Part shown: positions 1 to 3,000 of the stretch, in pieces
Layout: each line of letters starts with the position of its first letter
Position numbering within the stretch: the stretch's first letter is position 1
Assembly: GCA_001001485.1 (NCBI GenBank)
Contig: LCKO01000001.1
Location: 76,517-140,516, forward strand
Length of the DNA stretch: 64,000 bases
Direction of reading: 5' to 3'
DNA from: Candidatus Collierbacteria bacterium GW2011_GWB2_45_17
GTDB lineage: Bacteria > Patescibacteriota > Microgenomatia > UBA1400 > MFAQ01
Program-made: the position numbers

Positions 1-3000
1 CGTCCGTCAGTCCGCCGAGGATCGAGTCACCGGTTTCCTTCTAAATATCGATAAATATTTCGCCGACAAACCCAGGCCAAAAATAATTCTCACCGGCTGT
101 ATGCTCCATTTTAAGGAAAAGGAAATCATGGCTCTTCTTCCTCAAATAGATGAAATTCTCCCCATTGGTGAAGTAGGTTTCAATCAAAAAGCCATCAGAA
201 AAGATAAAGACAAAGCTTTTATTCCTATTTCCTCCGGCTGCAACTCTTTCTGTACTTTTTGTATCGTGCCTTTTTCCCGCGGACGGGAAAGATCCAGACC
301 ATTGGTAGATATTGTTAAAGAGGTTGAAGACTTGGCGTCTGAAGGTTACACAGAAGTTACCCTCCTAGGCCAAAACGTCAATTCTTGGGGTCTGGAAAAA
401 GTTGGTGTGGCTTTGCGCAAACTCTTTATGGACAAGGAAAACTTTAATGGTGAAACTATTCCTTCAAATCAATCGCAATACTTTAAGCCGCAGGACACTC
501 CACCCTTCGTCACTCTTCTCCGTGCCGTGAGCAAAATTAATGGAATCAAAAAAATCAGCTTTTTCACCAGTAATCCTTGGGACTTTTGGGACGAATTAAT
601 CGATGAAATTGCTGTCAACTCAAAAATTGATCGCTTTATTCATTTACCGGTTCAGTCTGGTAGCAACCGGATATTAAAATTGATGAATCGAGGATACACT
701 CGGGAGTCATATCTCTCTTTAATTAATCAAATTAAAACCAAAATTCCGGACGCGATCTTTGGTACCGACATCATTGTCGGCTTCCCGGGAGAAACGGACG
801 ACGATTTTAACGACTCTCTGTCTTTAATCAAAGACGTCGGCTTCAAGGTGGCTTTTATCGCCAGATACTCTCCCCGCCCCGGTACTGCGTCAGACCGCCT
901 ATTCCCCGATGATGTTTCCGCCAAAGTCAAGAAAGAGCGTTGGGAAATTCTTGATCAAATCGCCAACAAAGACAACCTTAAAACTCGCCCCATCGTCCCC
1001 TAATATGCCCAAAAAACCAGCAATCCTTGTCATCTGCGGTGCCACAGCCACCGGCAAAACCTCCTTAGCTCTCAAAGTAGCAACGGAAATTATTTCACTT
1101 TCGTCATTGCGAGGAGCGAAGCGACGTGGCTCTCCTGGATACCCCTTGCGGGTAAATCTCACTCCATCAACATCTGTGAACATCCTTTCCGCCGACTCCC
1201 GTCAAATTTATCGTGGTTTGGATATCGTCACCGGCAAAGATCTTCCTCGCGATCTTCCACCGATGATTCGGTTTTTTGGTCTCGACTTGGTCGAACCCAA
1301 TCAGCCCTTCAGCCTTTTAGATTATGTCCGGTATGCCAAAAAAGTTATTCAGGAATCACTAGATAAAGATATTCCCCTCATTATTGTCGGAGGCACCGGT
1401 CTGTATTTAAAAGCCATCACCTCTGATTTGTTAAACGTTCAAGTTCCTCCGAACCAAAGTCTTCGGTTAGAGCTTGAGAAGCTAACACTGGTAGAGCTTC
1501 AAAACCAACTTCAAGAAGTAAATTTCGAAAAATATAAATCATTAAACAATTCCGATATTCACAACCCACGGCGCCTCATCCGCGCTATCGAAATCTCCTC
1601 CGCCAATCCGTCATTGCGAGGAGGTATTCCGACGTGGCAATCTCACTCCACCCCCACATTCCTCTGGGTCGGTCTCCGCCAAGATAAAGAAGCTCAGAGC
1701 GCCAGCATCCGCCAAAGAGTTCTCAAGCGCCTAAACGCTGGAGCGATTGATGAAGTCAAGCAGTTAATCAAGAAATATCCCGAGAGAGACATGGCTCTTT
1801 TTACCAGTCTTGGAGTCAGAGAAATAATTGAATTTCTAAATAAAAAAATCTCACGGGAAGAATTAATTAACCTATGGACCGCCACCGAAAATGACTACGT
1901 TCGGAGACAAATGGTTTGGTTCAAGAAACAACCTGGCATAATTTGGTATGATAGAAACAAGATAAATAAAGATCTGGCCATCAAGCTGGCAGAATTATTC
2001 AAACAAAATGATTAAAAGAAGACACATAACTTTCGATATCTCCATTGGTAGTATCTTTTGGGTCTTACTTTCTCTGGCGGCAGTCTATGTCTTAGTTCAG
2101 TTGTCGGGGATCATCGTTCTTCTTCTCTGTGCAGCCTTGATTACCTTGGCGGTCTGCCCTTTAGTCGATTGGTTGGATAAGTTCAAAATAAAACGTGGTC
2201 TGTCCGCAATCGTCATTTTATTGTTAATTTTCGGCACAGTTGTCTCTATCGCCATTTATATCGCTACTCCTCTGTTGGAACAAACCCAACTTTTTATCCA
2301 AAAGCTTCCAGGCATCATCGATTCAGTGAGCCCGATCAAGTTTGTTGATGGCTCTTTCAACACCCAGTTTGCAGCCGTTCCCGGTAAAGTTTTAAATTTT
2401 GCCCTGGATACCTTCACTGGATTTATCACCGCCTTCACCGTGATCGTCCTAAGCTATTACATGATTCAAGAGATGCATAATCTTAAAACTTATTTAACCT
2501 TCTGGTTTGGAGAAAAGGGAGACGTTTACAACGCTATCGCTGAAAAACTTGAATTCCAGATTGGTAACTGGGTCAGAGGTCAACTGCTTCTCATGCTTAT
2601 TGTGGGTGTTCTGAGCTATATTGGCTATCTCATAATTGGGCTACCATTTGCCTTACCACTTGCTTTCTTTGCCGGCTTCTTAGAACTCATCCCGAACATT
2701 GGACCCACGATTGCGACCATTCCGGCTGTCTTGGTTGGGTTTTCCATTTCTCCCAATCATGGCATCGCCGCTCTCATCATTTCTCTGATTGTGCAACAGC
2801 TGGAAAATAACTTAATCGTTCCAAAAATCATGCAACAGGTCACCGGACTAAACCCAATTATTACTATTGTCGCTATCATGATCGGTTTTAACCTGGGAGG
2901 CCCCTTGCTCGCCATCCTGGCCTTACCCACAGTCCTCTCTGCTAGGGTTATTCTCAGTCATGTCAGACTCAATAAAGAAACCACCATCCCCGAAATCGAC

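What the first reader, a model, noticed from the sequence alone, without database searches (positions are those of the whole stretch)
1101..1653. Small palindromic elements inserted in-frame within miaA and at the 5' end of a carboxypeptidase gene
Two copies of a dispersed element (CGTCATTGCGAGG-variable hairpin-GACGTGGCAATCTCACTCCACCC, with a long form carrying an extra CTCTCCTGGATACCCCTTGCGGGTA block) sit inside the MiaA reading frame without breaking it. They add about 27 and 15 residues at loop positions relative to canonical MiaA. Further copies are at 8720 (intergenic), 15422 (N-terminal coding region of the D-Ala-D-Ala carboxypeptidase), 27689 (truncated) and 58688 (long form). Protein-tolerated insertion of palindromic repeats is known from Rickettsia RPEs, and this window shows it with an unrelated element.
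Basis: seen in the sequence. Interest (0 to 1): 0.65.

Follow-up and report, generated by a model that had tools for sequence, protein, structure and literature searches.

The report
In-frame palindromic repeats inside CPR genes
Short hairpin-forming repeats of a known, widespread bacterial type (CGTC-tagged REPs, the class that includes two Rickettsia "protein-coding palindromes") are scattered through this Collierbacteria genome. Several sit in frame inside genes such as miaA, where they encode floppy loop residues, which makes this a good example but not an unprecedented one.

Summary
Six same-strand copies of CGTCATTGCGAGG–variable hairpin–GACGTGGCAATCTCACTCCA lie in the window, against 0.8 expected by chance. 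Two are in frame in miaA and one lies in the N-terminal tail of an S11 carboxypeptidase.

The window comes from Candidatus Collierbacteria (CPR). REP-free MiaA orthologues show that copy 1 adds about 26 residues. Copy 2 encodes about 15 residues but lengthens its linker by only about 3. Both segments are low-confidence coil in an AlphaFold model.

The element is not unrelated to RPEs. It has the CGTC tag and AT-initiated stem of the CGTC-tagged REP superfamily (Di Nocera 2013), which includes Rickettsia RPE-4 and RPE-6 and for which intragenic copies are documented. Its core GTCATTGCGAGG…GCAATCTC occurs in many phyla, with a covarying apical hairpin.

Four things look new:
- The host is a CPR bacterium.
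- About 40% of copies lie inside ORFs, mostly sense, with one reading frame preferred.
- Different REP types recur at the same protein sites in related lineages.
- The architecture is modular. A 24-nt side hairpin is a clean indel against a close relative and recurs at the same structural position in other REP families.

A RAYT-like gene in the window is flanked by GTAG REPs, not by this element, so how the element moves remains inferred. Verdict: a new variant of a known kind, of moderate interest.

The parts
1005..2015 (+). miaA (tRNA dimethylallyltransferase), the host gene of two in-frame repeat copies
   Evidence: The ORF is unbroken. Pfam IPPT 6.4e-47 and TIGR00174 161 bits. It is 100% identical to the Cand. 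Collierbacteria GW2011_GWB1_45_35 protein.
1102..1166 (+). Copy 1, long form (65 nt). It encodes MiaA residues 33-54 (SSLRGAKRRGSPGYPLRVNLTP) in the loop between the P-loop helix and strand 2.
   Evidence: The site is empty in REP-free orthologues. The AlphaFold model gives coil there, with pLDDT below 50 at residues 45-52.
1131..1154 (+). Nested 24-nt side-hairpin block (TCTCCTGGA-TACCC-CTTGC-GGGTA) that splits the 3' half-stem GC|AAT. It encodes SPGYPLRV.
   Evidence: It is a clean indel against L001, whose flanks are identical. Related blocks sit at the equivalent position in other CGTC-type repeats.
1609..1650 (+). Copy 2, short form (42 nt). It encodes MiaA residues 202-216 (PSLRGGIPTWQSHST) in the variable linker after the RAIEI helix.
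   Evidence: The linker is 21 residues against a REP-free median of 18. pLDDT dips at residues 201-220. Relative L003 has an octamer tandem repeat at this position instead.
8720..8764 (+). Copy 3, intergenic, ending 16 nt upstream of the secD ATG (8781). Its apical hairpin is TCGCC-TCA-GGCGA.
   Evidence: It folds better than shuffles (z = -3.5). It is conserved base for base at the orthologous site in L003.
15422..15462 (+). Copy 4, in the N-terminal cytoplasmic tail of the S11 D-Ala-D-Ala carboxypeptidase (ATG at 15398). It is read in a third frame (RHCEERSDVAISLH).
   Evidence: Orthologues keep the MKK start and the membrane helix, with other repeat types or nothing between them.
27689..27746 (+). 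Copy 5: a variant without the CTCACTCCA tail (27689-27722) abutting a partial inverted copy (27725-27746). It is intergenic, upstream of def.
58688..58756 (+). Copy 6, long form. Its apical hairpin is TTCGG-TACT-CCGAA and it carries a 23-nt side block at 58722-58744. It is intergenic, between a DHHA1-domain gene and the Ham1 gene.
11775..12329 (+). RAYT-like Y1 (HUH) transposase gene, a candidate trans-acting enzyme for REP-type repeats. The link to the CGTC element is not shown.
   Evidence: Pfam Y1_Tnp 25.8 bits against a cutoff of 23. The only PDB sequence match is 4ER8, E. coli TnpArep, and it covers both the HUH and the Tyr motif regions. A syntenic homologue is present in L003.
12033..12415 (.). 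GTAG-tagged REPs (GTAGGGGTTTCATTTATGAAACCC), a second repeat family. Two direct copies lie just downstream of the RAYT gene (12326, 12392), and an inverted pair lies inside its ORF, in frame (12033 +, 12113 -).

Best explanation
What it is. These are copies of a REP-type, non-autonomous palindromic repeat of the CGTC-tagged class. One unit is 41-69 nt and has five parts:
1. An unpaired CGTC tag.
2. A 5-bp outer stem, ATTGC/GCAAT.
3. A purine-rich internal loop (GAGG(A) opposite (GA)CGWR).
4. A variable apical hairpin whose pairs covary.
5. A lineage-specific tail, CTCACTCCAYC.
A further small hairpin can sit as a side arm between the 3' half-stem and AATC.

How it ends up in genes. The family is abundant in Collierbacteria, and its core occurs across many bacterial phyla. 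In this gene-dense CPR genome many copies land inside genes. Copies persist only where they keep the reading frame, contain no stop codon, and fall in flexible segments. The sense strand is open in all three frames.

In this window the tolerated sites are the MiaA loop after the P-loop helix, the MiaA linker after the RAIEI helix, and the cytoplasmic N-terminal tail of the carboxypeptidase. At those sites the copies are translated into Ser/Gly/Arg/Pro/Thr-rich coil. The same permissive sites are hit or overwritten repeatedly in related lineages by different REP types.

Shown versus inferred. Shown: the repeat family, its hairpin covariation, in-frame residence, empty orthologous sites, a recent 24-nt indel, and strand and frame bias. 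Inferred: that the inserts are translated and roughly neutral, and that spread goes through a single-stranded DNA hairpin handled in trans by an HUH/Y1 enzyme such as the RAYT encoded in the window.
For: The repeat is non-random and sits on one strand.

Orthologue comparisons:
- REP-free homologues have an empty site 1 (spacing 16 against 42 here). 15 of the 116 homologues scorable at site 1 and 23 of the 90 scorable at site 2 carry REP-like peptides of several types.
- L001 lacks only the 24-nt block. L003 has CGTC-TCCCGCTACGGCGGGA-CTCACTCCA at site 1, that is the same frame with a different hairpin.

Family-level evidence:
It also occurs in plasmids of cultured Methylosinus, Novosphingobium, Calothrix and Legionella.
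- The middle regions fold better than shuffled versions (p = 2e-17 and 3e-9).
- Apex pairs covary: 13 double-change cells against 4.0±1.6 in shuffles, with 0 of 500 shuffles reaching 13.

Census of 93 non-redundant Collierbacteria-type copies:
- About 40 lie in ORFs of at least 120 aa, 35 sense and 5 antisense.
- The antisense copies use the open reverse frames.
- Sense copies use the SLRG frame 26 times, against 7 and 3 for the other two frames. That points to selection on the encoded peptide.

Structure and literature:
- The AlphaFold MiaA model has mean pLDDT 83.8, with dips exactly at the two inserts.
- The literature describes CGTC-tagged REPs that include RPE-4 and RPE-6, and it documents intragenic copies.
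- A RAYT-like gene is present in the window.
Against: - Di Nocera et al. found no dedicated transposase for CGTC REPs. Here the RAYT-like gene is flanked by GTAG REPs, not by this element. The proposed mobilising enzyme is therefore unsupported by any direct association.
- Copies within one genome differ greatly in the apical hairpin while the flanks stay fixed (64 distinct middle regions in 95 copies). That pattern is unusual for recent copy-and-paste spread and could point to a host-level function.
- No target-site duplication or fixed insert length was found. Unit length modulo 3 varies among the in-frame copies.
- Translation of the inserts has not been observed directly.
- The intragenic fraction rests on a crude ORF heuristic, not on proper gene calls.
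Confidence: 0.8

Rival explanations
1. The element is primarily a functional structured RNA in mRNAs, for example a 5'-UTR or intercistronic stabiliser or a protein-binding site. On this reading the coding copies are by-products or also act at the RNA level.
For: - The hairpin covaries while its flanks are conserved across phyla.
- The optional arms always sit at fixed structural positions, as in RNA families.
- The secD copy is conserved base for base in a relative and lies 5 nt downstream of a TATAAT box.
- Intergenic copies are co-oriented with both neighbouring genes 19 times and opposed to both 9 times.
- Di Nocera et al. also argue that many REPs act as RNA.
Against: - No Rfam family matches, either at gathering thresholds or at relaxed E-values.
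- Several copies fold no better than shuffled sequence as RNA (z between -0.5 and +0.1 for the copies at 1102, 1609 and 15422).
- Copies occur in both orientations relative to genes, and at unrelated positions: inside proteins, in 5' regions and in tandem arrays.
- The promoter scans gave no consistent relationship.
Confidence: 0.12
2. The inserts are removed before or during translation, as a mini-intron, a ribozyme or a translational bypass. On this reading the mature MiaA is canonical.
For: The element forms a compact hairpin, and CPR bacteria are known for insertions in rRNA genes (my recollection, not tested here). One orthologue (P0015) appeared at first to start right at the insert.
Against: - P0015 is a miscalled start. 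The full ORF reads through the insert in frame.
- Every intragenic copy examined keeps the frame and has no stop codon. Orientation and frame are strongly biased, which would not be needed if the segment were excised.
- The lengths and boundaries vary. No known ribozyme or intron family matches.
Confidence: 0.03
3. The shared segments are protein-level motifs, that is selected linker peptides or low-complexity sequence, or else assembly artefacts. On this reading they are not a DNA repeat.
For: The peptides are hydrophilic and linker-like, and they recur at the same sites in orthologues.
Against: - The same nucleotide unit is read in three different frames in different genes, and it also occurs between genes.
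- The same miaA allele is present in independent assemblies (L001, L002 and L152).
- Identity lies at the DNA level, while the encoded peptides differ by frame.
Confidence: 0.02

Closest known systems
CGTC-tagged REPs (Di Nocera, De Gregorio & Rocco 2013, BMC Genomics 14:522; families CGTC-1 to CGTC-4)
   Same: - An unpaired CGTC tag, and a stem that begins with A-T pairs. ATTGC/GCAAT matches the start I back-inferred for CGTC-3 from its tabulated peptide VIAGLDPAIH; the consensus itself is not in the held text.
- A short tail ending in CCA, and a spread over several phyla.
- Copies inside genes that encode short peptides.
- No transposase gene next to the repeats.
   Different: - The stem is not an uninterrupted 8-9 bp with a 4-5 nt loop. 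It is a 5-bp stem, then an internal loop, then a variable covarying apical hairpin, sometimes with an extra side hairpin.
- The tail is 9-11 nt (CTCACTCCAYC).
- Copies are singletons or head-to-tail arrays rather than head-to-head dimers.
- The host is a CPR bacterium, and a much larger share of copies is intragenic.
Rickettsia palindromic elements (RPE; Ogata et al. 2000 and 2002, as summarised in PMC10969869 and PMC3733652)
   Same: - Palindromic repeats inserted in frame in unrelated housekeeping genes, at positions compatible with the protein fold.
- RPE-4 and RPE-6 belong to the same CGTC superfamily.
- The peptide VIPAKAGI, listed for R. conorii, also occurs at MiaA site 2 in Collierbacteria relatives.
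   Different: - RPE-1-type elements are about 100-150 bp, whereas these units are 41-69 nt.
- The stem sequence differs from the tabulated RPE-4 and RPE-6 peptides.
- The host is a free-living or episymbiotic groundwater CPR lineage, not an alphaproteobacterial endosymbiont.
REP/REPIN–RAYT systems (GTAG REPs mobilised by REP-associated tyrosine transposases; E. coli TnpArep, PDB 4ER8)
   Same: - Small hairpin repeats with a conserved 5' tetranucleotide.
- The window encodes a single RAYT-like gene with HUH and Tyr motifs at a conserved locus.
   Different: - The tag is CGTC, not GTAG.
- The RAYT gene in the window is flanked by a different, GTAG-tagged repeat.
- No inverted REPIN doublets of the CGTC element are seen, apart from one partial pair at 27689-27746.
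Very small dispersed repeats nested in other repeats in cyanobacteria (Elhai et al. 2008, Genome Res; cited from memory, not read here)
   Same: A unit of about 21-27 nt is found inserted inside other hairpin repeats. That resembles the 24-nt, 21-nt and 20-nt blocks nested in these REPs.
   Different: The sequence and the host are different. Independent mobility of the blocks was not shown here. In the 830 kb examined they were found only inside CGTC-type repeats.

Membership tests
CGTC-tagged REP superfamily (Di Nocera 2013) | An unpaired CGTC (or TGTC/CCTC) motif at one end of the palindrome | tested here: met
   All six window copies begin with CGTC. All 93 metagenome copies do so too, but that was imposed by the search pattern. 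In the pan-bacterial set the base before GTC varies, as the paper also describes.
CGTC-tagged REP superfamily (Di Nocera 2013) | The stem starts with complementary A-T residues at positions 1 and 2 | tested here: met
   ATTGC pairs with GCAAT in every copy.
CGTC-tagged REP superfamily (Di Nocera 2013) | A stem of 8-9 bp and a loop of 4-5 nt | tested here: not met
   The outer stem is 5 bp, followed by an internal loop and a variable inner hairpin of 2-8 bp. Some copies carry extra side hairpins. The authors note that bulged, atypical units escaped their search.
CGTC-tagged REP superfamily (Di Nocera 2013) | A short (3-nt) unpaired tail, consensus CCA | tested here: inconclusive
   The tail is CTCACTCCA(YC). 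It ends in CCA but is 9-11 nt long, and the pan-bacterial core is followed by CTC.
CGTC-tagged REP superfamily (Di Nocera 2013) | Mostly organised as head-to-head dimers | tested here: not met
   The window has singletons plus one partial tail-to-tail pair. A relative has a head-to-tail array of 3 units of 43 nt.
CGTC-tagged REP superfamily (Di Nocera 2013) | No adjacent dedicated transposase | tested here: met
   The only Y1 transposase gene identified in the window is flanked by GTAG REPs, not by the CGTC element. Only selected ORFs were scanned, so the window was not searched exhaustively.
Rickettsia palindromic elements (RPE) | In-frame residence in unrelated protein-coding genes at structurally permissive sites | tested here: met
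   Seen in MiaA (two sites) and in the carboxypeptidase tail here, and in many other ORFs in relatives.
Rickettsia palindromic elements (RPE) | Sequence membership in one of the named RPE families | tested here: inconclusive
   The peptides of this element (SLRGAKRRGNL, HCEERSDVAIS, VIARSEATWQS) are absent from the tabulated RPE-4 and RPE-6 peptides.
Rickettsia palindromic elements (RPE) | The inserted peptide is expressed in the mature protein | not testable with these tools
   This needs proteomics or RNA-seq.
MITE (IS-derived, with terminal inverted repeats and target-site duplication) | Terminal inverted repeats flanked by direct target duplications | tested here: not met
   The unit ends (CGTC and CTCACTCCA) are not inverted repeats. 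No duplication appears at the 24-nt indel or around any copy.
REPIN–RAYT system | A GTAG (or GTGG) guide tetranucleotide 5' of the hairpin, with the RAYT gene flanked by the same repeat | tested here: not met
   The element carries CGTC. The RAYT flanks carry GTAGGGGTTTCATTTATGAAACCC instead.
Known RNA families (Rfam 15) | A match to a curated covariance model | tested here: not met
   Only RNase P and tRNA-Gln pass gathering scores in the window. Nothing credible appears at E up to 10 over 1050-1700.

The most novel reading that the evidence does not exclude
In CPR bacteria the CGTC-type repeats may be modular scaffolds rather than plain selfish hairpins. On this reading, small hairpin cassettes of 20-24 nt are inserted into, or exchanged between, different repeat families at fixed structural positions. 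Whole hairpin bodies are also swapped between the constant CGTC and CTCACTCCA frames. Together these events would give a hairpin-targeted, possibly RAYT-independent turnover that keeps rewriting the linkers and tails of essential proteins. The deep cross-phylum conservation of the GTCATTGCGAGG…GCAATCTC core would then reflect a conserved, still unknown trans-acting protein.
Probability: 0.2. Interest if true: 0.6.

Novelty: new variant of a known kind. Interest (0 to 1): 0.38.

Why it matters
- It extends the "protein-coding palindrome" phenomenon, best known from Rickettsia, to the Candidate Phyla Radiation. There, roughly 40% of copies of one repeat family appear to lie inside genes.
- It links that phenomenon to a repeat core shared by many phyla.
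- For annotation, it explains odd, non-homologous segments and miscalled starts in CPR proteins, for example P0015. It also explains many spurious "hypothetical" peptides such as SLRGAKRRGNL, HCEERSD and VIARSEA.
- For evolution, it offers a concrete set of loci where repeat turnover at permissive loops can be studied: two sites in MiaA and the carboxypeptidase tail.
- It raises the open question of what mobilises CGTC-tagged repeats and their nested cassettes.

Tried and rejected
- Rfam at gathering and at relaxed thresholds found no family for the element.
- An NCBIfam scan of MiaA, the carboxypeptidase and four 23-24-residue repeat peptides gave no RPE-type domain hit. The peptides may be too short for that test.
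- P0015 looked like a miaA gene split at the insert. Its DNA shows one continuous frame, so it is a gene-calling artefact.
- I tested whether the intergenic copies mark promoters. The secD copy follows a TATAAT box, but the consensus scans around 8720, 27689 and 58688 gave no consistent picture.
- A literature search for the core sequence returned only unrelated primer matches. A search for CPR together with palindromic in-frame repeats found nothing relevant.
- The supplements of the Di Nocera paper do not contain this element's sequence or peptides. Figure 2, which holds the family consensus sequences, is not held as text. I therefore could not decide whether the ATTGCGAGG type is one of their CGTC-2 or CGTC-3 subtypes.
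- I looked for a fixed unit length modulo 3 among the in-frame copies and found none. The insert boundaries are therefore not the motif ends.
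Full report
**Observation.** The motif CGTCATTGCGAGG occurs six times in the window, all on the + strand: 1102, 1609, 8720, 15422, 27689 and, with one mismatch, 58688. That compares with 0.77 matches expected, and no shuffle of 100 reaches six. The 3' part AATCTCACTCCA occurs five times exactly. The extra block CTCTCCTGGATACCCCTTGCGGGTA is at 1130-1154, and a 23-nt variant lies in the copy at 58688.

The ORF at 1005-2015 is miaA (Pfam IPPT 6.4e-47, TIGR00174 above its cutoff). It reads straight through both copies, which encode residues 33-54 and 202-216. 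The protein is 100% identical to MiaA of Candidatus Collierbacteria bacterium GW2011_GWB1_45_35, a member of the Candidate Phyla Radiation.

**Are the segments insertions?** I aligned 24 orthologues and measured spacings in 120 homologues.
- Site 1: the distance from the P-loop GKT to the DSRQ motif is 16 residues (median, n=101) when no repeat-like peptide is present. It is 42 in the window, so copy 1 adds about 26 residues.
- Site 2: the linker after the RAIEI helix is 18 residues (median, n=67) without a repeat and 21 here. The roughly 15 repeat-encoded residues therefore largely replace a linker rather than lengthen it.

At the DNA level, a relative with 87% identical MiaA (L001) is base-identical around site 1 but lacks exactly the 24-nt block. 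A more distant syntenic relative (L003) has CGTC-TCCCGCTACGGCGGGA-CTCACTCCA at site 1. That is the same tag and tail around a different hairpin. At site 2, L003 has three tandem copies of ACCGTGTC.

Other Collierbacteria carry still other repeat peptides at the same two sites, among them VGAIHESP, HSGLDPESR, CHPRESGDP, VIPAEAGIHP and VIPAKAGIHQ. In the AlphaFold model (mean pLDDT 83.8) the only internal confidence dips apart from one at residues 141-150 (the lower-confidence chain termini aside) are at residues 31-60 and 201-220, and both are coil. One orthologue that seemed to begin at the insert (P0015) is a miscalled start, and its ORF is continuous.

**The other copies.**
- Copy 15422 lies between the conserved MKK start and the membrane helix of an S11 carboxypeptidase. 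Orthologues have nothing there, or other repeat types. It is read in a different frame (RHCEERSDVAISLH) from the miaA copies (SLRG…).
- Copy 8720 is intergenic, 16 nt upstream of the secD ATG, and is conserved base for base in L003.
- Copy 27689 lacks the CTCACTCCA tail and abuts a partial inverted copy.
- Copy 58688 is a long form lying between genes.

**What the element is.** A literature search found Di Nocera, De Gregorio and Rocco 2013 (PMC3733652). They sort most REPs into GTAG-tagged and CGTC-tagged superfamilies. CGTC elements have four features:
- an unpaired CGTC tag;
- stems that begin with A-T pairs;
- short tails, mostly CCA;
- no associated transposase.

CGTC elements include R. 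conorii RPE-6 (CGTC-1) and RPE-4 (CGTC-4), and they occur inside genes in several species. The window element has the tag and the A-T-initiated stem (ATTGC/GCAAT, the same opening I infer for their CGTC-3 by back-translating its tabulated peptide). The peptide VIPAKAGI, tabulated for R. conorii CGTC-1, appears at MiaA site 2 in Collierbacteria relatives. The element is therefore related by architecture to the smaller Rickettsia RPEs, not unrelated to them.

**Distribution and structure.**
Matches came from Chloroflexota, Planctomycetota, Bacteroidota, Firmicutes, Proteobacteria, Patescibacteria, Nitrospirota, Omnitrophota, Elusimicrobiota and others.
- The core is also present, unannotated, on plasmids of cultured Methylosinus, Methylocystis, Novosphingobium, Calothrix, Trichormus and Legionella.
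- The conserved parts are GTCATTGCGAGG and CG(AA/TG/CG)GCAATCTC. Between them lies a hairpin of very variable sequence.
- The middle regions fold better than shuffles (p = 2e-17 and 3e-9).
- In the fixed-length class, the two apical pairs show G-C/A-T/U-A exchanges. There are 13 double-change cells against 4.0±1.6 in shuffles, and 0 of 500 shuffles reach 13.
- No Rfam family matches.

- With a simple ORF heuristic, about 40 copies lie inside ORFs of at least 120 residues, 35 in sense and 5 in antisense orientation.
- The antisense cases are real genes that use the reverse frames that happen to be open.
- The sense strand is open in all three frames, yet 26 of 36 in-frame sense copies use the SLRG frame. 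That suggests selection on the encoded peptide, and hence translation.
- Intergenic copies are less strongly oriented: 19 are co-oriented with both neighbours and 9 are opposed to both.

**Departures from the classical CGTC REP.**
- The stem is interrupted by a purine-rich internal loop.
- The tail is 9-11 nt.
- Copies are singletons or perfect head-to-tail arrays (three units of 43 nt upstream of rpmA in L131) rather than head-to-head dimers.

**Modular architecture.**
- The 24-nt or 21-nt hairpin block (…TACCC-loop-GGGTA) always sits between the 3' half-stem and (A/G)ATC. It does so in at least four different CGTC-type repeat bodies.
- A 20-nt perfect palindrome, CCTGCCTGCCGGCAGGCAGG, sits between GA and CG in other copies.
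- The hairpin body itself is exchanged between the constant CGTC and CTCACTCCA frames.

I found no target-site duplication and no fixed length class.

**Mobility.** The window encodes a RAYT-like Y1 transposase at 11775-12329.
- It scores above the Pfam Y1_Tnp cutoff.
- Its only PDB sequence match is E. coli TnpArep (4ER8), covering both the HUH and the Tyr motifs.
- The gene sits at a conserved locus, also present in L003.

It is followed immediately downstream by two copies of a different repeat, the GTAG-tagged GTAGGGGTTTCATTTATGAAACCC, and it is interrupted in frame by an inverted pair of that repeat. That fits the classical REP–RAYT picture for the GTAG family but gives no direct link to the CGTC element. 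This matches Di Nocera's conclusion that CGTC REPs lack a dedicated transposase. Mobilisation through a single-stranded hairpin handled by an HUH enzyme is therefore an inference by analogy.

**Verdict.** The best explanation is a CGTC-tagged REP-type repeat that persists in frame at permissive loops and tails and is translated (confidence about 0.8).

A primary RNA-level function (about 0.12) and removal before translation (about 0.03) are the main rivals. The phenomenon and the superfamily are already described. The CPR host, the very high intragenic share, the repeated turnover at the same protein sites, and the modular nested architecture make this a new variant of a known kind, of moderate interest.

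Noticed in passing
window 11775-12329, with repeats at 12033-12056 (+), 12113-12136 (-), 12326-12349 (+) and 12392-12415 (+): A RAYT-like Y1 transposase gene is followed immediately downstream by two GTAG-tagged REPs. The gene itself carries an inverted REP pair (a REPIN-like doublet) in frame between its HUH and Tyr motifs. That adds about 31 residues relative to E. coli TnpArep.
   Followed up: partly
window 26463-26501, 27803-27841, 30047-30085 and 58772-58810: A second dispersed motif forms two adjacent hairpins (TTGGCC-TAAC-GGCCAA AG TGCCTGC-TTCG-CAGGCAC). Three of its four copies lie just downstream of a CGTC-type repeat and upstream of a gene. It matches no Rfam family at gathering score.
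   Followed up: partly
window 26386-26433: A CGTC-type repeat of a different family (TGTCATTCCGG…CCGGAATC) has its own nested hairpin (TCCGCCAGTTGGCGGA). This shows that several CGTC families coexist in this genome.
   Followed up: no
window 31829-31909 and 36984-37064; tRNA-Gln at 37096-37169 (-): An 81-nt direct repeat, 100% identical, brackets about 5 kb next to a tRNA-Gln gene. It could be the attachment-site duplication of an integrated element.
   Followed up: no
window 23678-23742, 27361-27425 and 31904-31968: A 65-nt repeat (GGCGACCTCCCC…TTCGAACTT) occurs in three copies at 63-100% identity. The third copy abuts the 81-nt repeat above. Its nature is unknown.
   Followed up: no
window 24422-24719 and 28847-29144: A 298-nt duplication at 84% identity covers small ORFs (98 aa, and the end of a 140-aa ORF). 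These look like paralogous small genes 4.4 kb apart.
   Followed up: no
window 20135-20662: A 175-aa ORF is built from three repeats of 159 nt (53 aa), each containing a Cys-rich, zinc-ribbon-like motif (…EKCPKCSSPL…).
   Followed up: no
window 4012-4316 (-): The bacterial RNase P RNA only just passes the Rfam gathering score (105.5 against 100), and the match spans 305 nt against a 367-position model. That is consistent with the reduced structural RNAs reported for CPR.
   Followed up: no
L003 9300-9400 (miaA site 2 of a relative): The linker that holds the repeat in the window is occupied in a relative by three tandem copies of the octamer ACCGTGTC. At 24 nt this is in frame, and it is another way this linker is rewritten.
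   Followed up: no
L131 11070-11217: A perfect head-to-tail array of three 43-nt units lies upstream of rpmA and is preceded by a unit with a different hairpin body. Since 43 is not a multiple of 3, each unit would shift the frame by one. All three frames of the unit are open.
   Followed up: partly
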